Shown: positions 7,649 to 29,439 of the stretch, in pieces
How the letters are laid out: each line of letters starts with the position of its first letter
Numbering within the stretch: the stretch's first letter is position 1
From: Deltaproteobacteria bacterium
GTDB lineage: Bacteria; Bdellovibrionota; FAC87; UBA2466
Reading direction: 5' to 3'
Assembly: GCA_900299195.1 (NCBI GenBank)
Contig: OMIX01000089.1
Span: 2,892-66,891 of the forward strand
Length of the DNA stretch: 64,000 nucleotides
The notes under the pieces: generated by a model
What the model was told of the DNA's origin: nothing
What the model saw: the letters and a program-made list of their open reading frames with translations, nothing else
Databases searched by the model: none
Made by a program: the position numbers and the translations under genes

Positions 7649-8244
7649 CCTCATTTTCTGAAAGTTACATTCAAGAAAGTATTTCTATTTTAAAAGATCT
7701 TAACTCGCGTGAGATCGAAAATATGGCCCAGGGTTTAGGAAGAGTGAGAGATCAAGGTGGACGTCTTTTTATTCTTGGAGTCGGCGGTTCTGCCGGTCAC
7801 GCAAGTCATGCAGTCAACGACTTTAGGAAAATATGCGGTTTTGAATCCTATTCCCCTACCGACAATGTTTCAGAACTCACAGCAAGAGTGAATGACGAAG
7901 GTTGGGACACCTCGTTTTCGGAGTGGCTTAAGGTATCAAGACTCTCTTCTAAAGATGCTGTGTTGGTTTTTTCAGTTGGCGGTGGAAACCGAGAAAAAAA
8001 TGTATCTGTCAACTTAGTGAAGGCTCTAGAGCTTTCTCAACAAGTAGGTGCTAGTATTTTTGGGATTGTAGGAAAGGATGGCGGATTTACTAAAACCGTA
8101 TCTGAAAGTTGTGTCATTATTCCCTCTGTTTCCTCAGAAAGAATCACGCCTCACACAGAAGGATTTTGCGCTTTAGTATGGCACCTCTTAGTAAGCCATC
8201 CCGCACTGAAGAAGACGGCAACCAAATGGGAATCGGTCAAGTAG
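7645..8244 (+). CDS. SIS-domain sugar-phosphate isomerase, phosphoheptose isomerase (GmhA)-like
   Basis: 'LGVGGSAGHASHAVNDF' matches the GmhA 'GNGGSAADAQH' region; 199 aa. Confidence 0.7.
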   Translation: MTSFSESYIQESISILKDLNSREIENMAQGLGRVRDQGGRLFILGVGGSAGHASHAVNDFRKICGFESYSPTDNVSELTARVNDEGWDTSFSEWLKVSRLSSKDAVLVFSVGGGNREKNVSVNLVKALELSQQVGASIFGIVGKDGGFTKTVSESCVIIPSVSSERITPHTEGFCALVWHLLVSHPALKKTATKWESVK

Positions 8245-21013: not shown

Positions 21014-22471
21014 TTAAAGGTTCAAATCCTCAACGCGGGACGAGAGACTGCGAAGAAAATCTTCTAACGCAGCTATTTCATGTTCACTCAAATTCAATGG
21101 CTTTAGCGTTTCCTCTCTAAAACCTACTCCAGAATGAGTCTCCATTTTGTTGTAGTGCTCCAGGACTTCCCTTAAAGTCTTCAATCTACCATCTCTCATG
21201 TATGGAGCAGTCTCTGCTACATTTCTTAGAGTCGGGGTTTTGAACGAACCAATCGCCTCTGGAGTTTCACTGTCCAAGAAATTGAGATCCCGACAGCTTT
21301 CGCTTTTTTGTCTTGAAGAATCTTTCAAAAATATTCCTTGGCAATTAAATCGGTCTTTTTTGACGGTCAACACACCTAAACTTCTCCCTAAATCAAACGG
21401 AGCCTGGCTTTGCGGAAGTCCAATATTGTGAAATTGATTGTCTTTAAAGTAGGGACCACTGTGACAAACATGGCAGGCCCCTTTTCCTAAAAAGATTTGA
21501 AACCCTAGAAACTCAGAGAAATTGAATTTCTCACTAAAATGAACTCTGGGGTCCGGATTTGAACTCTGCATCCACCTGCGGATAAATTGATCGAAAGCAG
21601 AATCTCTGGCAACAATGCCCTTTTCAAAGGCTTCAAAAGCCAGTCCAACGTTTGAGAAAACCCTATCTAACTCAAATCTTTGTTCACGATTCATTCTCCA
21701 GTAGTTAACTGATAATACATCTCCTTTTTGTGGAGATTGATTTCTTAATTTCTGGCGGAACTGTCGGATTTGCTGGGGTGAAAGTGTCAATTCATTCGAG
21801 CCGATTTCAGAGAGCAACTTTGGATTATCTGCTGAAACCATCGTATTTCTCACTACCCCATCAGAAAATTGAGGGCGTTCCCGCAAGGGACGCGCTTTAA
21901 AAGGGAGTGCCTTTTCCAATATTTTTGGAAAGGGGCCAAAAAGATTTTCGTAATCACTACGGGAGTTGTTTAAAATCCAGAAAGCTAATTCGGAACGAGT
22001 CAACCCCTGTTCACCCTCATCCTCAATGGGATTCAACGATTGTGCCGCCAACGAATCGGTGCGACCATCCCAGTAAAACCAAAAACTTGAAAAACTATTG
22101 ATGATAGTTGGGGTATTACGATCTCGTTGAGTTAAACCCTGTGCAGTAGTTTTACCATCCGTAAAGGATAGTTCTGGTTTATGACATGTCGCGCACGAAA
22201 TTTTCCCATTCTTGGATAAGCCAGTCTCGAAAAATAATTTTCTACCCCAATGAGCTAGTTCCCGATCTCTAGGGGTCAACTCGGGATCTTGGAAAACAAA
22301 AAACTGAGCCAACTTCCTAAGTTCGTTATCTGCCAATGGCTTGTTACCCATGGCGTCCCTTAACAATCTAGCCTGCTCTTTGGGAATCATGATGTACCGC
22401 CTGATGCCCACCATCCCAAGGACAATCAAAATCCATAAAAATAAAGTCAGCGAAAGTTTTTTAGAAATCAT
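21014..22471 (-). CDS. diheme cytochrome c peroxidase (CCP/MauG family)
   Basis: Signal anchor; two CxxCH motifs ('CATCH', 'CHVCH'); length and spacing typical of bacterial CCP. Confidence 0.85.
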   Translation of the reverse strand: MISKKLSLTLFLWILIVLGMVGIRRYIMIPKEQARLLRDAMGNKPLADNELRKLAQFFVFQDPELTPRDRELAHWGRKLFFETGLSKNGKISCATCHKPELSFTDGKTTAQGLTQRDRNTPTIINSFSSFWFYWDGRTDSLAAQSLNPIEDEGEQGLTRSELAFWILNNSRSDYENLFGPFPKILEKALPFKARPLRERPQFSDGVVRNTMVSADNPKLLSEIGSNELTLSPQQIRQFRQKLRNQSPQKGDVLSVNYWRMNREQRFELDRVFSNVGLAFEAFEKGIVARDSAFDQFIRRWMQSSNPDPRVHFSEKFNFSEFLGFQIFLGKGACHVCHSGPYFKDNQFHNIGLPQSQAPFDLGRSLGVLTVKKDRFNCQGIFLKDSSRQKSESCRDLNFLDSETPEAIGSFKTPTLRNVAETAPYMRDGRLKTLREVLEHYNKMETHSGVGFREETLKPLNLSEHEIAALEDFLRSLSSRVEDLNL

Positions 22472-22887
22472 TTGTTATCAATGTTTAAAGGAGTTTCAAT
22501 TCGAGTGGTCCCTGTTTTATCCTTAATCAAAAACTGCAGTAACCAATTTCCCGGCATGTGAAACCTGACACCCTCCACCCGATACTCCAGCCTCGAAATT
22601 TTAATCACTTTGGCCTTAGTTACCATTCCATGGTTATGCTGGGGCATTCTGGCATCAAAGGTAAAATCGAGCACCTCCCCCGCCTGTTTCTCAATAGGAA
22701 GCAATGAAACTATCCATGTCGTATGCCGATTTAATTGAAATAGTTCAGCACCTTTTTCAGCTGCCTTGATAGATATTTGAAAGTTGGGAGTCCTCCATTC
22801 ATAAGCCAACCCCAGAGACGAAAAAAAACCAAAACTCATTATCCAAAGGCAACTGTAGCGGAAACAATTCAAAGATTTTTTCATCAT
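22468..22887 (-). CDS. small periplasmic His/Met-rich protein, putative metal-binding partner of the peroxidase
   Basis: Signal peptide; 'MPQHNHGM' and 'FHMPGNW' motifs; stop overlaps the CCP start (ATGA coupling). Confidence 0.5.
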   Translation of the reverse strand: MMKKSLNCFRYSCLWIMSFGFFSSLGLAYEWRTPNFQISIKAAEKGAELFQLNRHTTWIVSLLPIEKQAGEVLDFTFDARMPQHNHGMVTKAKVIKISRLEYRVEGVRFHMPGNWLLQFLIKDKTGTTRIETPLNIDNK

Positions 22888-24057: not shown

Positions 24058-25665
24058 TCAGGGGGTAGTGCTGCTCTTCTTAAAAATTAAGGAACGACTG
24101 CTGTTGTTTTTTATAAAATGATTCCCCTCAAAAGGTAATAAAGGTGATAATAAATTGAACGGACTAAGTCTTAACTCAATGGAATTGGCGGTCTCTCTGT
24201 TGCCAACGAGATAACGGTCTTTTTGATCTAAAAATAGAGCAATTCTTCCCGTATAAAAATCATAACTACCGCCTCGAAAGTCTTTGGCTGGCCAAAAGGA
24301 TTCGGTATGAATCATTCGTCCCACAAAATTCAATGGAGAAAATGGATTTTCCAAGTTGGAAGGTATTTTCTCAGCTGCGACTCCCACGTTAATTAACAAA
24401 TTATCAAAAGTATATGTACCGGAGAGAGACCCCACTGTAATTTTGTCGGTTGGAAGTTGAGGAAGTTTTGATTTCTGAAAGTAAAAAGTTCCCACCCTCC
24501 CAAAAAGTAGTGAATACCAAACCCCCTCGATAAAATCCTCATTAGCATTCGTAATTTCTAAGACCGCATCCATCTCGTTCACTTCAGTTAATGTGGGTTT
24601 GGCTAAGACAAAATGATTTGAATCTTCGGATAAAAAAACGGGGTCGTAGCGGTAAGTGAGAGCTTCTTGAGATTTAAAATCTCCAAAATAAAGTCTAAAC
24701 AAAGTTGAAAGCCCTATGGGTCCACCTTCGGTTTTTGGAGGCACTATAAAAAAATCTAAGTCAGCTGCTTGATACTCATTAAGCAACTCGTGATGAACAT
24801 ACCCTATGTAAGCGCCCTCCAACTTTCGAGGCTCGATAGTTCTTCTTTGGGAATGCTGGGGAAATTCAGAAGCGGTTGCGAAAAGTTGGGTATGAACCGA
24901 TGCATCCTCACTGGAAGTTTTTTTGTACTGACACGAACCACAGGTCATCCCAGATTCATTAATCAGACAATGCTGATTTTCATACCTACCAAAGAGATCT
25001 AGATTTTGGGTGTAGAAATTATAGGCTCCTGAGAAAAACAAGTTACGAACACAGTAATTGGTTTCCGTACATTGATTTGGGTTTTCAACTCCTATCTCGC
25101 CCACAATTTCATAGTCTGAAAAGGGATGGCCCGTTTTAGTCGTTTCTTGAATACTTCGATAAGTATAGAGCTGAAGCTTTTCTTTTTTGCCTGAGCAAAC
25201 TCCTTCATATTCTCCCCAAAGGGCATCTATCAGGGGATATTTCAGAGCCACTTTTCCATCTTTTCTTAAAATAAGTTCAGGGTGATCCGTAGTGAAGCTC
25301 GTTCGCAAAGTTCCTTTGAGCTCTTCTTCAGAAAACTTAGGAAAGGAAACACTAACCTCTTGATTGATTTGGTCAAAGACTAGCCAATCTCCATGAAGAT
25401 GAGCTGTATCAAAGTGAAAAGAAACATACTCCCGGCTTTTTAAATCACCAAAATAGAACTTGAGAAGCCCTAACCAACTGGAAGGCACTTCAGATTGCGG
25501 ATTAGCTACCAAATCCAAAGTGACATATTGGTCCCTCTGAATCGAATGATGACGAAGGACTCCAGTATATCGAAGTGAAGGAAGAGACGCTCCGGGAGAG
25601 GCAATAGTGAGCAACAATCCTAAAATAAATGATAGTTTGAATTGTTTTTGGAACGTCATTCTCAA
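24058..25665 (-). CDS. hypothetical secreted protein with internally duplicated domain (535 aa)
   Basis: Signal peptide; two homologous halves ('LLKFYFGDLKSREYVSFHFD' / 'LFRLYFGDFKSQEALTYRYD'). Confidence 0.5.
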   Translation of the reverse strand: MRMTFQKQFKLSFILGLLLTIASPGASLPSLRYTGVLRHHSIQRDQYVTLDLVANPQSEVPSSWLGLLKFYFGDLKSREYVSFHFDTAHLHGDWLVFDQINQEVSVSFPKFSEEELKGTLRTSFTTDHPELILRKDGKVALKYPLIDALWGEYEGVCSGKKEKLQLYTYRSIQETTKTGHPFSDYEIVGEIGVENPNQCTETNYCVRNLFFSGAYNFYTQNLDLFGRYENQHCLINESGMTCGSCQYKKTSSEDASVHTQLFATASEFPQHSQRRTIEPRKLEGAYIGYVHHELLNEYQAADLDFFIVPPKTEGGPIGLSTLFRLYFGDFKSQEALTYRYDPVFLSEDSNHFVLAKPTLTEVNEMDAVLEITNANEDFIEGVWYSLLFGRVGTFYFQKSKLPQLPTDKITVGSLSGTYTFDNLLINVGVAAEKIPSNLENPFSPLNFVGRMIHTESFWPAKDFRGGSYDFYTGRIALFLDQKDRYLVGNRETANSIELRLSPFNLLSPLLPFEGNHFIKNNSSRSLIFKKSSTTP

Positions 25666-25748
25666 GCTCCCAAAGGTCTCGGACAGAGTTCTAAAACATT
25701 TTGGGATTTAGATTCAACTTTAAAAAACTGAATAACAAGTTCTTAAAG

Positions 25749-26123
25749 CTAATGTGAGTTAGCTGCGCCTACACACTTGAGATCGGCTAATTCTCTAGGT
25801 CCTGCAAAAGTGGTTTCAGATAATTTTCCGTTCATATCCACTCCTGGAAGCTCCAGCTTAATCGTTGCAAAAAATCCTGCATCAGCCACACGTTGAGCTG
25901 TTCGACAATTTAAGAAGGCTTTTAACGTGTGGTCGGAGGGTTTGGGATATACAACGTTACATTTCATGTTTCCAAACTCGATATCCTCACCATTCACAGT
26001 AAGTTTAGCAGTTTGATGATTAGAGCTAACCTTGAGGTTCCATTTTCCACCACTGCAAAAAATAGGGGCTCCGAAAGAAAATTGAGATACGACCATGAAT
26101 CCCATTAACAAGTAAGTTTTCAT
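25749..26123 (-). CDS. small secreted Cys-containing protein (124 aa)
   Basis: Signal peptide, 6 Cys, no motif. Confidence 0.4.
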   Translation of the reverse strand: MKTYLLMGFMVVSQFSFGAPIFCSGGKWNLKVSSNHQTAKLTVNGEDIEFGNMKCNVVYPKPSDHTLKAFLNCRTAQRVADAGFFATIKLELPGVDMNGKLSETTFAGPRELADLKCVGAANSH

Positions 26124-26400
26124 AAGTACTCCTTAAAAAAGTTACCCCTTTCTAACAGAAAATAACACATTGCGCAACCTGCGCTTTAAGGAATGCTGAC
26201 CTTCCCCCTTAATTAGTGTCAGTTTATGGCTTTAATTACAGCTTACAAGAGCACCACGGCTACTCTTCAACCTTGGTACTGTGAAGGAAATTTTTTGAGA
26301 GCCTCAGCGTAGGCAGGAGTAAGTCGTAAAAAATAATGTCCATTAATATTTTGCACTTCGCCCTACTCCAATGCTCAACATGACAAATTGTTTTTTGTAA

Positions 26401-27645
26401 TCAGTGCTGCGCTGAATGTTCTGTAGCGAGTCTAGCAAAAGATTTCAAACAACGTCGGCTGCCCAAATTAAAGACAAGACTTTCATCCCGAGTTGGCTCC
26501 CCACTGACAAATTCATTAAGATTCTCTTTGTCGAGTAAGCCGGTATTTTGATAAGCCTTGCCGAAGGTCTCGGGAAATGCTTTAGCCACGGCATGAACTC
26601 GTTTGACGGGATCTACTTTAAAAGCACTTTCTAAAAACCGTTCCTTTTCCTTATCCAACTCCGTAGTTGGCGGAAGGAGCTCCCTGAGTTTGGAATTGAC
26701 GAAAGATTCGAAGTCGGTTGCTGCCCGCTTGTTCGAAAGTAATAGCCGAGTGCCCCTTGAGAATAAATCATTAGAATCGACTGAAGAGTTTTTAAATTGA
26801 ATCTGGAAATACATTAACAATAGCGGTTTTCTAAAAAGTTCATGACTGATGGATTGCGCCTGTGAAAACAAATCCTCTGAAGGAACATTTGAGAGCCTTT
26901 GTTGGTAATGTAAACGCTCCGGTGCTGCATAGGACGGAGTAAACATGATGACCTTGGATGTTCCAGTCTCAGAGACACTATCAAGATCCCCAAGCCTTGC
27001 TTGGGCACCCATTATGTTATTACTTTTTAAAAGAAAGTAATTGGAAGGCTTAATGTCTCCATGAACAAGATTATTTGAGTGAAGCGCAAGAAGAGCCCCT
27101 TGACCAGCAAGAAATAAAAGATCAGAACGAATAATTCTTTGGTCTTCAGATAGCCTTTCTGGTTTTTTTGTCTCAAAGGTTCCTTTGGCAAGTGTGGAAC
27201 GGACGACGAATTCAGAACCTTCATATGCGTGCTGCTTCAACCACACTTCTTGAGTGGGTTCATAATTCAGAAAGAAACTCGGATTTGAATCCATTAACTT
27301 GCGATGTTGCGGGCTTCCGTAAAACTGTAAGCTATCTTTACCAGACAGTATTAAGTTGTTCTTTTGATCGCGTATCGGCCTGGCGAATTTCATCGCTTGG
27401 ATCTGTTTGGATCGAGCGCATCCCGAAAGGCACTCCACCTGGTAAACCTCGCCGGAACTACCCTTTCCTAGTATCTTAATAATTTTATACTCGCGATTAT
27501 CTTTATCCACCCAAACTTCCCCGGGTTGGACGGCGTGAATAGTTTTGTAGCACCCAACGAGAAAAAAGAATGTTAAAATAATCCCGAAGCCGAACTCTCG
27601 ACCTTTTTCTAGCGACCGTGCAGTCTTGTGGAGCTCAGGGCGCAT
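26401..27645 (-). CDS. Hanks-type Ser/Thr protein kinase with N-terminal signal anchor
   Basis: Gly-rich loop 'GKGSSGEV', 'AMK' lysine, catalytic loop 'HGDIKPSNY', 'DLD' in place of DFG, 'APE' motif; hydrophobic N-terminal segment after a basic stretch. Confidence 0.7.
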   Translation of the reverse strand: MRPELHKTARSLEKGREFGFGIILTFFFLVGCYKTIHAVQPGEVWVDKDNREYKIIKILGKGSSGEVYQVECLSGCARSKQIQAMKFARPIRDQKNNLILSGKDSLQFYGSPQHRKLMDSNPSFFLNYEPTQEVWLKQHAYEGSEFVVRSTLAKGTFETKKPERLSEDQRIIRSDLLFLAGQGALLALHSNNLVHGDIKPSNYFLLKSNNIMGAQARLGDLDSVSETGTSKVIMFTPSYAAPERLHYQQRLSNVPSEDLFSQAQSISHELFRKPLLLMYFQIQFKNSSVDSNDLFSRGTRLLLSNKRAATDFESFVNSKLRELLPPTTELDKEKERFLESAFKVDPVKRVHAVAKAFPETFGKAYQNTGLLDKENLNEFVSGEPTRDESLVFNLGSRRCLKSFARLATEHSAQH

Positions 27646-28411
27646 AATATCCCAGTACGGCTCTTGTCATATCAAAGTCACGTTCATTTTCGATAAATAA
27701 TATTTTGCGATATTCCGTAGCATCCTCAATCATATTATTCATGGGATCTGCGATAAGATTGCTTTTTGGAAGATAAACAAAGACATGGGAAAATGTTGGT
27801 TCGTTTTTTTCTTCTCGAGCATCTGCAACTCTTAGCTCTGCTTCGATCCCAAGTTGTTTAAGAATTTTATATAAAATGGTGGCCTTGTGGCGGCAAACTC
27901 CTCTATCTTTGACACGGGAATCAAGAAAACTCGAGGCAAAACGAACTGTGTTGGGATGGAGAACCAAAGTAGACCACACGATTTGACCACCTTTTCCATC
28001 ATCACTGGGATCTCCTCCGTAGAGTTTGCTAATAAACATCTTCAATATTTGTTTTAGGTTTTGACCTGAATACTTCAGTAACTCTCTTTCTTCCGCTGTT
28101 AAGTGAGAAACAATATTGTCCCAATCAAAGTAAATACCAAACCCGATGTGAGGTGCCTGACGAGTAAACGACTGGATTTGGTGTATCAAAATGGGAATAG
28201 CTCCAACAGCGGTTAAAGTACCGCCTAATCCGACAATTCTTGTTAAAGTTTGCCGACAGGAGTAGCGAGTAGCAGTTGACTGGATCGAATCCGAAAGGAA
28301 TACAGTTCTCTCGCCTTTTATTTTTTCGATATCTGAAATTTCCAAGCCTAGGGCGCCGATATTTGTTAGACAGATACAAATAAATACGATACTTCCACGG
28401 TATCTCAGCAT
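27635..28411 (-). CDS. transglutaminase-like (TGL) cysteine protease superfamily protein, exported
   Basis: Cys-His-Asp core 'GVCRHKA ... SHVFVYL ... LIADP' with canonical spacing; N-terminal signal sequence; 3' end overlaps the kinase start by 11 nt. Confidence 0.55.
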   Translation of the reverse strand: MLRYRGSIVFICICLTNIGALGLEISDIEKIKGERTVFLSDSIQSTATRYSCRQTLTRIVGLGGTLTAVGAIPILIHQIQSFTRQAPHIGFGIYFDWDNIVSHLTAEERELLKYSGQNLKQILKMFISKLYGGDPSDDGKGGQIVWSTLVLHPNTVRFASSFLDSRVKDRGVCRHKATILYKILKQLGIEAELRVADAREEKNEPTFSHVFVYLPKSNLIADPMNNMIEDATEYRKILFIENERDFDMTRAVLGYYAP

Positions 28412-28556
28412 ACCAAAGCCTTTCTTTGCCCCATTTCTTCTTGGTTAATGCAAATGGGATTCCATGAAAGAGAGATTAAAAAAGCTTTTTTTTCATAGTT
28501 TGAGTTGATCGGGGATAAGACAGAGATTTTTACCAAAGCATTAAAATCGAAAGAGT

Positions 28557-29303
28557 TTACTTTGATGGGACAGATCCGCTTTGTTGGATTGGAATAAGAT
28601 AGACATGGGTATAACCTAGTTCTTGAAGTTGCTTTTTAAACGAGCGGGAAGTTTCTGAGTCGCGAATAAGAATAATTTTATCCCGGTGGGTAATCATTCC
28701 ATGGGTAGCAGTACTGATAGCTTTTTTTAATTGGGTTCGACTCCAATTTTCACTCTTTGCCTTTTCTATCATTTCGCTATGGATCGATTGGGCTCGTTTA
28801 AAATCGGGAGGATTTGATACTTCAATTTCGATCGATTCTTTTAGGGTGATTAAGCTTGGAATTTCTTGGGAAATAGGAAATCCGCTCGCCTTCGAAATAG
28901 GGATGAGATGATTGTTGAGTACGTCCGAACGATCCAGAAGAACTAAGGGGCTAGGGGGGTTCTTAAAAAAGAACATGACATCTAAATCGCTTTTTTGTTC
29001 GGGAGAGTATCCGTAACTGAAATGGGTTCTGCTTCCAAAAAGCACCATCGCCTCAACATCACTAAAGTCTGGGTTGTTTTTGAAGATATCTATGAGCTCA
29101 TTGAGTTGGTTTTGGCTCATACCCATCGGGGTGGGAATGCCCTGATATCGCTTGGCTTCGAAGTTAAGAAGCTCACGGCAGTTAGTTTTGGGAATGGCAA
29201 GAGAGTAATGGCACACAAGCCCAAATGTCATAATAATAGACAGAGCTATATGTTTTTTTACAGTATTCATCGTTTTCTGACTCAATTCCAAATGCCAAAA
29301 CAT
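28557..29303 (-). CDS. Pol-beta-fold nucleotidyltransferase with Sec signal peptide (start probably at 29270, 'MNTVKKH')
   Basis: 'LFGSRTHF...SDLDVMFF' (G-S-x14-D-x-D) minimal nucleotidyltransferase signature; n-h-c signal peptide 'MNTVKKHIALSIIMTFGLVCHYSLA'. Confidence 0.5.
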   Translation of the reverse strand: MFWHLELSQKTMNTVKKHIALSIIMTFGLVCHYSLAIPKTNCRELLNFEAKRYQGIPTPMGMSQNQLNELIDIFKNNPDFSDVEAMVLFGSRTHFSYGYSPEQKSDLDVMFFFKNPPSPLVLLDRSDVLNNHLIPISKASGFPISQEIPSLITLKESIEIEVSNPPDFKRAQSIHSEMIEKAKSENWSRTQLKKAISTATHGMITHRDKIILIRDSETSRSFKKQLQELGYTHVYLIPIQQSGSVPSK

Positions 29304-29362: not shown

Positions 29363-29439
29363 TGGTGGGCGCCACAGGACTCGAACCTGTGACCTCTGCC
29401 GTGTGAAGGCAGCGCTCTAACCAGCTGAGCTAGGCGCCC
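29363..29439 (-). tRNA. tRNA-Val (anticodon CAC) with encoded CCA
   Basis: Reverse complement GGGCGCCTAGCTCAGCTGGTTAGAGCGCTGCCTTCACACGGCAGAGGTCACAGGTTCGAGTCCTGTGGCGCCCACCA folds as a cloverleaf; anticodon loop TTCACAC. Confidence 0.85.

What the first reader, a model, noticed from the sequence alone, without database searches (positions are those of the whole stretch)
26401..28411. Exported transglutaminase-like Cys-His-Asp protein translationally coupled to a signal-anchored Hanks-type kinase
The TGL-like gene overlaps the start of the kinase gene by 11 nt. TGL has an intact catalytic triad and a signal sequence. The kinase keeps the Lys, the catalytic Asp and APE but has HGD and DLD in place of HRD and DFG. 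Its N-terminus is a basic stretch followed by one hydrophobic helix, which would place the kinase domain outside the cytoplasm. Extracytoplasmic Hanks kinases are rare. A coupled pair consisting of a cysteine protease or crosslinker and a kinase looks like an effector module rather than housekeeping signalling.
Basis: partly seen in the sequence, partly recalled or inferred. Interest (0 to 1): 0.65.

Follow-up and report, generated by a model that had tools for sequence, protein, structure and literature searches.

The report
Strain-variable exported protease–kinase gene pair
A probable predatory bacterium (Bdellovibrionota) carries a two-gene cassette, absent from a sister strain, that encodes a transglutaminase-fold cysteine enzyme and an unusual lipoprotein-type Ser/Thr kinase; both look exported, but the pairing is found nowhere else and no function has been tested.

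Summary
Two minus-strand ORFs, 27635-28411 (258 aa) and 26401-27645 (414 aa), overlap by 11 nt (ATGCGCCCTGA).

- **ORF 2** is a real but atypical Hanks-type kinase: Pfam 49.8 bits, with HGD and DLD motifs and no identifiable alphaC Glu. Only one relative was found. Its N-terminus is a lipoprotein signal (lipobox LVGC, Cys32), not a plain signal anchor. There is no C-terminal transmembrane segment or sensor.
- **The pairing is not conserved.** None of 10 other loci of the ORF 1 family has a kinase nearby, and the one kinase relative has no such gene upstream.
- **The two genes are nonetheless present or absent together.** Window 26217-28538 is replaced by 29 nt in two independent datasets of a strain that is 94-97% identical.

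My best reading is an accessory, co-translated, envelope- or prey-directed module. The topology of ORF 1 is ambiguous and both activities are inferred. Interest is moderate.

The parts
26217..28538 (-). Two-gene presence/absence cassette: TGL gene, kinase gene, 127 nt upstream and about 184 nt downstream. The right boundary is uncertain by about 80 nt.
   Evidence: blastn of the sister-strain contig L020 (GCA_046089625.1) and of L026 (SRR9924802) against the window. Homology covers 29332-28539 and 26216-23290, with 29 nt in place of window 26217-28538. GC is 0.415, against 0.417 for the window.
27635..28411 (-). Gene for a 258-aa transglutaminase-fold Cys-His-Asp protein (TGL)
28349..28411 (-). 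TGL residues 1-21, signal-peptide-like segment (MLRYRGSIVFICICLTNIGAL)
   Evidence: Kyte-Doolittle 19-residue mean 2.02. Relative P0004 has a textbook signal peptide ending AWA.
28181..28237 (-). TGL residues 59-77, second hydrophobic helix just before the catalytic domain, preceded by conserved Cys52 (28256-28258)
   Evidence: Kyte-Doolittle mean 1.77. Modelled as part of an isolated long helix, residues 52-84. Across the family the N-flank has net charge +3.0 and the C-flank -0.2, in 49 of 56 members.
27893..27895 (-). Catalytic Cys173 codon (RGVCRHKA)
   Evidence: It sits at the N-terminus of helix 173-186 in the model.
27785..27787 (-). His209 codon
   Evidence: Invariant in 54 sequences. 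Lies on strand 207-214.
27746..27748 (-). Asp222 codon (ADP)
   Evidence: At least 90% conserved. Lies on strand 219-222.
27635..27645 (-). 11-nt overlap ATGCGCCCTGA: kinase start codon to TGL stop codon
   Evidence: The same overlap is kept in the variant L040.
26401..27645 (-). Gene for a 414-aa atypical Hanks-type Ser/Thr kinase with a lipoprotein signal
   Evidence: PF00069 at 49.8 bits against a cut-off of 31.7. hhalign probability 98.5% against a canonical kinase.
27550..27645 (-). Kinase residues 1-32: basic n-region, hydrophobic core, lipobox L-V-G-C (Cys32)
   Evidence: Matches the PROSITE PS51257-type pattern. Cys32 is conserved in the only relative.
26590..27489 (-). Kinase domain, residues 53-352
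   Evidence: Pfam envelope.
27388..27390 (-). Beta3 Lys86 (AMK)
   Evidence: Aligned to AMKF of a canonical kinase; checked by translation.
27040..27063 (-). Catalytic loop HGDIKPSN (non-RD; Asp197, Asn202)
   Evidence: Identical HGDIKP in relative L001.
26980..26988 (-). DLD in place of DFG (Mg-binding Asp220 kept)
   Evidence: GDLD is conserved in L001.
26917..26925 (-). APE motif

Best explanation
Window 26217-28538 is an accessory two-gene cassette in the chromosome of a probable Bdellovibrionota bacterium. It sits in a run of genes for secreted proteins just downstream of secG, tRNA-Leu and tRNA-Val.

Shown:
- The first gene encodes a member of a family that, as sampled, is restricted to Bdellovibrionota. 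Members are about 200-270 aa, have a transglutaminase/papain-like fold and keep a conserved Cys-His-Asp triad.
- The second gene encodes an orphan, non-RD eukaryotic-like Ser/Thr kinase. It keeps the ATP/Mg and phosphotransfer residues Lys86, Asp197, Asn202 and Asp220, and it starts with a lipoprotein signal peptide.
- The genes overlap by 11 nt.
- They are present or absent together between closely related strains.

Inferred:
- The pair is co-transcribed, and the kinase, which has a weak Shine-Dalgarno sequence, is translated by coupling to TGL.
- The kinase is exported by Sec, lipidated on Cys32 and held on a membrane facing the periplasm or the cell surface.
- The TGL catalytic domain is also extracytoplasmic, tethered by its basic-plus-hydrophobic helix.
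- TGL cleaves or cross-links a peptide or isopeptide bond, and the kinase phosphorylates Ser/Thr on envelope or prey proteins.
- The pair therefore acts as an optional envelope- or prey-directed enzyme module, not as core signalling.
- Because TGL relatives normally stand alone, TGL does not need the kinase. The pairing is a lineage-specific combination.
For: - Coordinates, overlap and motifs.
- Kinase domain: Pfam 49.8 bits; hhalign 98.5% to a canonical kinase. HGD and DLD are conserved in the 38%-identical relative.
- Kinase export signal: the lipobox pattern matches and Cys32 is conserved. The only other hydrophobic peak lies inside the kinase core, so there is no C-terminal transmembrane segment or sensor.
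- TGL family: 87 clusters, triad conserved. 42 of 54 members hit Transglut_core, and four distant members exceed the gathering score.
- Taxonomy: all 8 hits among 185,579 species genomes are Bdellovibrionota MAGs.
- Cassette: L020 and L026 lack exactly these two genes and share an identical junction. The pair is present in four other datasets.
- Selection: 10 synonymous against 3 non-synonymous codon changes versus L040.
- TGL topology: the helix before the domain has an N-flank of +3.0 and a C-flank of -0.2 in 49 of 56 members, and some members have this helix as their only signal.
- Neighbourhood: all five neighbouring genes carry N-terminal signals.
Against: - The pairing is not conserved: 0 of 10 other TGL loci have a kinase, and the kinase relative has no TGL upstream.
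- No dedicated signal or topology predictor was available.
- TGL has a signal peptide followed by a second hydrophobic helix. Read naively, that makes a type I membrane protein with a cytoplasmic catalytic domain.
- ATP is not known to be available in the periplasm, so an exported kinase needs an unusual ATP source such as prey cytoplasm or leakage.
- The alphaC Glu could not be identified (aligned positions Q113/H114). HGD and DLD are non-canonical, so activity is unproven.
- The kinase model was unusable (mean pLDDT 35).
- A lipid anchor argues for retention on the producer rather than injection into prey.
- The taxonomic assignment is indirect. The sister MAG is labelled only 'Deltaproteobacteria bacterium'.
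Confidence: 0.5

Rival explanations
1. Both enzymes work at the cytoplasmic face of the producer's own inner membrane. TGL would be a type I membrane protein: signal peptide cleaved, helix 59-77 acting as stop-transfer, catalytic domain inside. The kinase N-terminal helix would be an uncleaved anchor with the domain inside. The pair would then be an optional membrane-proximal signalling or modification module.
For: TGL has two hydrophobic segments, as do 43 of 56 family members. Kinases need ATP, which is cytoplasmic. For the window protein itself the charge bias around helix 59-77 is small, +2 against +1.
Against: The kinase n-region has 5 K/R and the flank after Cys32 is neutral to acidic. 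With a perfect lipobox, this predicts N-in/C-out or cleavage. Family-wide, the N-flank of the TGL helix is strongly positive (+3.0 against -0.2), and members lacking the first signal look like type II signal anchors. The nearest structural neighbours LapG, PeiW and the TgpA domain are extracytoplasmic.
Confidence: 0.15
2. The two genes are functionally unrelated accessory genes that merely lie next to each other. The 11-nt overlap reflects genome compaction, and the joint presence or absence reflects one deletion event.
For: No co-occurrence anywhere else. TGL relatives are stand-alone genes in unrelated contexts. A single indel event is enough to explain the polymorphism.
Against: The overlap, together with a weak Shine-Dalgarno sequence for the kinase, makes its expression depend on TGL. 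The indel boundaries enclose exactly the pair. Both carry export signals.
Confidence: 0.2
3. The kinase is a pseudokinase, or it catalyses a different reaction (AMPylation or glutamylation, or phosphorylation of a lipid or sugar) rather than protein Ser/Thr phosphorylation.
For: HGD and DLD replace HRD and DFG, and no alphaC Glu is found at the aligned position. The match to Pfam is weak (49.8 bits). The predicted location lacks ATP.
Against: Lys86, Asp197, Asn202, Asp220, GxGxxG and APE are all retained and are conserved at 38% identity. The D-x-K-x-x-N catalytic loop is of the Ser/Thr-kinase type. Seven synonymous against one non-synonymous change in the first 218 codons.
Confidence: 0.12
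4. The cassette is an anti-phage defence or other conflict system. This is suggested by its strain-variable location next to tRNA genes and by kinase similarity to defence kinases.
For: PADLOC matches of the kinase to mad6 (E 1e-12) and PD-T4-6. The region is a variable hotspot with a toxin-antitoxin-like pair in the sister strain.
Against: The PADLOC matches cover only the catalytic loop, about residues 184-249, and the partner genes are absent. TGL, NT248, p124 and p535 have no PADLOC hits. Both proteins carry export signals, which does not fit cytoplasmic phage sensing. There are no relatives on viral contigs beyond generic kinases.
Confidence: 0.05

Closest known systems
LapG, a bacterial transglutaminase-like cysteine proteinase (BTLCP, Pfam PF06035; PDB 4fgo/4u65)
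   Different: Only 15-19% identity and TM-score 0.34-0.45. None of 54 family members hits PF06035 at E <= 1. No LapD-like receptor, LapA-type adhesin or T1SS genes were found among the neighbours examined. The extra basic-plus-hydrophobic helix and the HIGxGIYLD motif are specific to this family.
Transglutaminase-like superfamily (Pfam PF01841/PF13471), including the TgpA periplasmic domain (6g49) and pseudomurein endo-isopeptidase PeiW (8jx4)
   Different: The window protein is below the Pfam threshold (13.1 against 23 bits). It belongs to a distinct short family restricted, as sampled, to Bdellovibrionota. Its substrate and reaction type (hydrolysis or cross-linking) are unknown.
Bacterial Hanks-type receptor kinases (PknB/Stk1 type)
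   Same: Pkinase fold and catalytic residues; membrane association through a single hydrophobic segment.
   Different: The architecture is inverted: an N-terminal lipoprotein signal followed directly by the kinase domain, with no C-terminal transmembrane segment or PASTA/sensor domain. It is a non-RD (HGD) kinase with DLD. NCBIfam PknB_PASTA scores 15.7 against 450 bits. The best PDB sequence matches are eukaryotic kinases (Nek7, S6K, TTK), not PknB.
Translocated effector kinases of pathogens (Legionella LegK1 and others)
   Same: A eukaryotic-like kinase with no sensor domain, encoded in an accessory region. There is a weak full-length alignment to the LegK1 model, residues 57-360.
   Different: LegK1 scores 15.3 against 550 bits. 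Those effectors use T3SS or T4SS signals and have no Sec or lipoprotein signal peptide (from general knowledge). No secretion-system genes were seen in the window regions examined.

Membership tests
Hanks-type (eukaryotic-like) protein kinase, Pfam PF00069 | Profile score above the curated threshold | tested here: met
   49.8 bits against 31.7, residues 53-352. Relative L001 scores 44.3 bits.
Hanks-type (eukaryotic-like) protein kinase, Pfam PF00069 | Gly-rich loop GxGxxG and beta3 Lys | tested here: met
   GKGSSG 60-65. Lys86 in AMK aligns to AMKF of a canonical kinase.
Hanks-type (eukaryotic-like) protein kinase, Pfam PF00069 | AlphaC Glu pairing with the beta3 Lys | tested here: inconclusive
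   The aligned positions are Q113/H114 in a low-confidence stretch. The structure model was unusable (pLDDT 35).
Hanks-type (eukaryotic-like) protein kinase, Pfam PF00069 | Catalytic loop HRDxKxxN and the DFG Mg-binding Asp | tested here: met
   Asp197, Lys199, Asn202 and Asp220 are present. The variants HGD (non-RD) and DLD are both conserved in the relative.
Hanks-type (eukaryotic-like) protein kinase, Pfam PF00069 | Phosphotransfer activity | not testable with these tools
   Needs a kinase assay.
PknB/Stk1-type receptor kinase | N-terminal cytoplasmic kinase, then a transmembrane segment, then an extracellular sensor (PASTA and similar) | tested here: not met
   The only membrane segment is N-terminal, and there is no domain after residue 352. 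NF033483 scores 15.7 against 450 bits.
Bacterial lipoprotein (Lgt/LspA substrate) | Basic n-region, uncharged h-region, lipobox [LVI][ASTVI][GAS]C with the Cys within residues 15-35 | tested here: met
   MRPELHKTARSLEKGREFGFGIILTFFFLVGC matches a PS51257-type pattern written from memory. Cys32 is invariant in the relative. SignalP and LipoP were not available.
Bacterial lipoprotein (Lgt/LspA substrate) | Actual lipidation and cleavage | not testable with these tools
   Needs globomycin treatment, palmitate labelling or mass spectrometry.
Transglutaminase-like superfamily (PF01841/PF13471) | Profile score above the curated threshold for this protein | tested here: not met
   13.1 against 23 bits, E 0.12. 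At family level 42 of 54 members hit at E <= 1 (best 2.9e-6), and P0048, P0080, P0081 and P0086 exceed 23 bits.
Transglutaminase-like superfamily (PF01841/PF13471) | Ordered, conserved Cys-His-Asp triad | tested here: met
   His209 is invariant; Cys173 and Asp222 are at least 90% conserved in 54 sequences and invariant in 13.
Transglutaminase-like superfamily (PF01841/PF13471) | Papain/transglutaminase core fold | tested here: met
LapG / BTLCP (PF06035) | Sequence-profile membership | tested here: not met
   No PF06035 hit at E <= 1 for the protein or for any of 54 relatives.
LapG / BTLCP (PF06035) | Genomic partnership with a LapD-type c-di-GMP receptor and a LapA-type adhesin with T1SS | tested here: not met
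   The neighbours scanned at 9227-44450 have no GGDEF, EAL, HAMP or T1SS domains. There is no conserved neighbourhood across 10 family loci.
Anti-phage defence kinases (PADLOC mad6, PD-T4-6) | Full-length match plus the system's partner genes | tested here: not met
   The matches cover only about residues 184-249, and the neighbours have no PADLOC hits.
LegK1-type T4SS effector kinase | NCBIfam equivalog score | tested here: not met
   15.3 against 550 bits.

The most novel reading that the evidence does not exclude
A predatory bacterium exports a Hanks-type Ser/Thr kinase through the Sec and lipoprotein pathway, co-translated with a membrane-tethered transglutaminase-fold enzyme. The two act together outside the producer's cytoplasm, on the predator surface or inside the invaded prey, using prey-derived ATP to phosphorylate prey or envelope proteins and to cleave or cross-link them. 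The cassette would be a strain-variable predation weapon. This would be a Sec-exported, lipid-anchored bacterial protein kinase with an extracytoplasmic site of action.
Probability: 0.18. Interest if true: 0.75.

Novelty: new variant of a known kind. Interest (0 to 1): 0.45.

Why it matters
If the kinase domain really lies outside the cytoplasm, it would be a rare case of a bacterial eukaryotic-like kinase delivered by the general secretory and lipoprotein route rather than by a T3SS or T4SS. That raises the question of where it obtains ATP and what it phosphorylates. A predator living inside prey is a setting where this question can be tested. The TGL protein also defines a family of about 87 clusters, largely unannotated and seen only in Bdellovibrionota as sampled. 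The family has a transglutaminase fold and an odd double-signal N-terminus, which makes its members candidate prey- or envelope-modifying enzymes. The natural cassette-plus and cassette-minus strains offer a ready-made comparison. Against this, everything functional is inferred, the kinase has only one relative and the pairing is unique, so general significance is uncertain.

Tried and rejected
- **Synteny of the pair elsewhere.** I looked up contigs for the close TGL relatives (L002, L003), for P0026 (L006/L007) and for 8 genome loci (L008-L015). tblastn with the kinase, a catalytic-loop regex and all-against-all ORF clustering found no kinase and no conserved neighbour.
- **Integration scars.** I found no tRNA-derived or target-site direct repeats at the cassette borders. 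Composition is indistinguishable from the host.
- **Kinase structure.** AlphaFold2 on a 2-sequence alignment gave pLDDT 35 and was not used for fold search.
- **afdb50 fold search.** The library was unavailable.
- **More kinase relatives.** The metagenome scan returned only about 28%-identical eukaryotic kinases on high-GC eukaryotic contigs. The viral scan returned only generic kinases.
- **Third homology search.** The word-index search with the 54-sequence profile was capped at 8000 candidates and returned only 5 proteins.
- **Apparent third allele.** L021-L023 are low-coverage chimeras carrying Illumina adapter sequence, so I discarded them.
- **Defence-system reading.** Rejected, because the PADLOC hits are partial.
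- **Rfam, promoter and terminator scans.** Nothing relevant.
- **Literature.** Searches for Bdellovibrio transglutaminase-like proteins or exported kinases found nothing pertinent.
Full report
**What is in the sequence**

Two minus-strand ORFs occupy the flagged interval: 27635-28411 (258 aa, 'TGL') and 26401-27645 (414 aa, kinase). The kinase ATG lies inside the end of the TGL gene, and the shared bases are ATGCGCCCTGA, 11 nt. This ATG is the only canonical start that keeps the conserved hydrophobic N-terminus, and the stretch before it is only weakly Shine-Dalgarno-like. By comparison, the next gene downstream (p124) has a strong AAGGAG. Translational coupling is therefore a reasonable inference, but it is an inference.

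**The TGL protein**

- **Sequence family.** Alone, the protein scores only 13.1 bits (E 0.12) against Pfam Transglut_core, below the 23-bit threshold. It has two close relatives at 42-46% identity.
- **Wider family.** A profile of these three, scored against 1.84 billion representative proteins, found 87 clusters, 65 of them at E <= 1e-10. Most are 200-270 aa.
- **Triad.** In a 54-sequence alignment His209 is invariant, and Cys173 and Asp222 are at least 90% conserved. In a 13-sequence subset R-G-[VI]-C-R-H, His209 and D-P are invariant.
- **Superfamily link.** 42 of 54 members hit Transglut_core at E <= 1 (best 2.9e-6) and 18 hit Transglut_core3. Four more distant members exceed the gathering score.
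- **Fold.** An AlphaFold2 model built on the 54-sequence alignment is confident over the catalytic domain: mean pLDDT 81, above 90 for residues 80-250. Cys173 sits at the N-terminus of a helix, and His209 and Asp222 sit on the following strands.
- **Not a LapG-family member.** No member hits PF06035, and no LapD, LapA or T1SS partners are nearby.

TGL is therefore a member of a new, compact family within the transglutaminase/papain-like thiol-enzyme superfamily. A pattern scan of one genome per 185,579 species found 8 loci, all in Bdellovibrionota MAGs (Pseudobdellovibrionaceae, Bacteriovoracaceae, Oligoflexia).

**TGL topology**

The protein starts with a signal-peptide-like segment (residues 1-21), and its relative P0004 has a textbook signal peptide ending AWA. 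A second hydrophobic helix follows at residues 59-77, which AlphaFold2 models as part of an isolated long helix spanning 52-84.

Across 56 family members, the helix before the domain has an N-flank net charge of +3.0 and a C-flank of -0.2 (49 of 56). A Cys lies just upstream of the helix in 37 of 56. In 43 of 56 there is also an upstream signal-like segment, while some members have only the basic-plus-hydrophobic segment and look like type II signal anchors.

By the positive-inside rule the catalytic domain should be outside. However, a signal peptide followed by a transmembrane helix would normally put the domain inside. I judge 'outside, membrane-tethered' more likely, but this remains unresolved.

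**The kinase**

- **Domain.** Pfam Pkinase scores 49.8 bits (cut-off 31.7) over residues 53-352.
- **Aligned motifs.** That alignment pairs GKGSSG with GEGSFG, AMKF with AMKF, HGDIKPSN with HRDMKPQN, GDLD with CDFG, and YAAPE with YMAPE.
- **Retained residues.** Lys86, Asp197, Asn202 and Asp220 are kept.
- **Deviations.** HGD (non-RD) and DLD are both conserved in the only relative at 38% identity. They are therefore family traits, not decay.
- **Uncertain residue.** The alphaC Glu could not be identified; the aligned positions are Q113/H114 in a low-confidence stretch.
- **Structure.** The AlphaFold2 model was unusable (pLDDT 35).
- **Nearest solved structures by sequence.** These are all eukaryotic kinases (Nek7, S6K, TTK, Myt1), not PknB.
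- **Named families.** Matches to LanL, MAD6, LegK1 and PknB-PASTA are far below their cut-offs.
- **N-terminus.** MRPELHKTARSLEKGREFGFGIILTFFFLVGC matches the lipoprotein pattern, with lipobox LVGC and Cys32. The Cys is conserved in the relative.
- **Architecture.** The kinase domain begins about 10 residues after Cys32. There is no later transmembrane segment and no sensor domain.

Simple rules therefore place the kinase domain outside the cytoplasm as a lipid-anchored protein.

**Is the pair a unit?**

Co-occurrence elsewhere fails:
- The close TGL relatives L002 and L003 are followed by convergent, unrelated genes.
- P0026 sits between an amine oxidase and a glycosyltransferase.
- None of the 8 genome loci has a kinase within 6 kb, by tblastn or by a catalytic-loop regex. 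No other neighbour is conserved either.
- The kinase relative (L001) has its own strong Shine-Dalgarno sequence. It has no TGL in the 414 nt available upstream.

The two genes do, however, behave as one unit at population level:
- A sister MAG (GCA_046089625.1, contig L020) and an independent Logan contig (L026, SRR9924802) are 94-97% identical to the window on both sides. Both have 29 nt in place of window 26217-28538, with identical junctions.
- The pair is present in the window. It is also present in two ENA assemblies at 99.9% identity.
- It is present as well in a 99%-identical Logan variant that keeps the 11-nt overlap.
- Against that variant there are 10 synonymous and 3 non-synonymous codon changes, and 7 to 1 in the kinase. 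This is consistent with purifying selection on a very small sample.
- No target-site duplication was found, and composition does not differ from the host. Insertion and deletion cannot be told apart.

**Context**

The cassette lies in a run of five same-strand genes, all with N-terminal signals:
- NT248, with a weak Polbeta-type nucleotidyltransferase match;
- TGL;
- the kinase;
- p124;
- p535.

The run sits immediately downstream of gap-pgk-tpiA-secG and of tRNA-Leu and tRNA-Val. In the sister strain, homology also breaks 30 nt from tRNA-Val, where RelE-like and HTH genes sit. This region is a variable hotspot. The rest of the window looks chromosomal, with many lineage-specific ORFs.

**Mechanism**

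My best reading (confidence about 0.5) is an accessory, co-transcribed and translationally coupled module. Both products act outside the producer's cytoplasm. One is a membrane-tethered thiol hydrolase or cross-linker. The other is a lipid-anchored Ser/Thr kinase. Both would act on the envelope or on prey.

The steps shown are gene structure, family and fold, conserved catalytic residues, signal motifs and the joint presence/absence. The steps inferred are export, lipidation, activity, substrates and cooperation.

The main difficulties are three: the ATP supply for an exported kinase, the ambiguous TGL topology and the lack of any conserved pairing. The rival explanations are a cytoplasm-facing membrane pair, unrelated neighbouring genes, a pseudokinase or alternative chemistry, and a defence system. 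The defence reading is weak, because the PADLOC hits cover only the catalytic loop.

**Novelty and verdict**

TGL is a new family within a known superfamily. The kinase is a known kind with an unusual lipoprotein-signal architecture and non-RD/DLD motifs. The cassette is a new combination. I found no literature on exported kinases or TGL proteins in Bdellovibrio-like organisms.

The pairing is unique to one lineage and every functional claim is inferred.

Noticed in passing
window 28557-29303 (-): The gene just upstream of the cassette (NT248) has a signal-like N-terminus and a weak Polbeta-type nucleotidyltransferase match (PF18765, E 5e-4; motif LFGSRTH...SDLDVMF). It looks like an exported NTase-fold protein. 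It is conserved in both cassette-plus and cassette-minus strains.
   Followed up: partly
window 24058-29303 (-): All five consecutive genes downstream of tRNA-Val (NT248, TGL, kinase, p124, p535) start with hydrophobic signal-like segments. p124 and p535 have no family matches at all.
   Followed up: partly
window about 29332, next to tRNA-Val 29363-29439; L020 1-2089: In the sister MAG, homology with the window stops 30 nt from tRNA-Val. A RelE-like ORF, an HTH (PF13560/PF01381) gene and a 99-aa ORF lie there instead. This is a second strain-variable point at the tRNA, suggesting an integration hotspot.
   Followed up: partly
TGL family, e.g. window 28181-28258 (-); proteins P0004-P0089: Most family members combine a cleavable-looking signal peptide with a conserved Cys, a K/R-rich stretch and a second hydrophobic helix. 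The charge bias of that helix contradicts a stop-transfer role. This double-signal N-terminus is unexplained.
   Followed up: partly
L001 415-600 and L003 130-297: The kinase relative and one TGL relative have conserved hydrophobic N-termini with no ATG, GTG or TTG upstream. L001 has AAGGAG followed by CTG, which suggests a non-canonical start or an assembly error.
   Followed up: no
kinase residues 72 and 399 (window 27430-27432 and 26449-26451, -): Two cysteines in the mature kinase (Cys72 in the N-lobe, Cys399 in the C-terminal tail) are conserved in the 38%-identical relative. A disulfide between them would fit an oxidising, extracytoplasmic location.
   Followed up: no
L021, L022, L023: Low-coverage ENA contigs seemed to show a third allele at this locus. 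They are chimeras: L023 ends in Illumina adapter sequence.
   Followed up: yes
L016-L019 (e.g. L018 4947-6068): The metagenome pattern scan with the kinase returned only high-GC eukaryotic contigs encoding canonical kinases at about 28% identity that share the peptide GQITAMKF. The kinase's nearest sequence matches in the PDB are also eukaryotic.
   Followed up: partly
window 21014-22887 (-): A di-haem cytochrome c peroxidase/MauG-like gene (PF03150, E 3e-34) overlaps by 4 nt a small gene for a YtkA-like exported protein.
   Followed up: no
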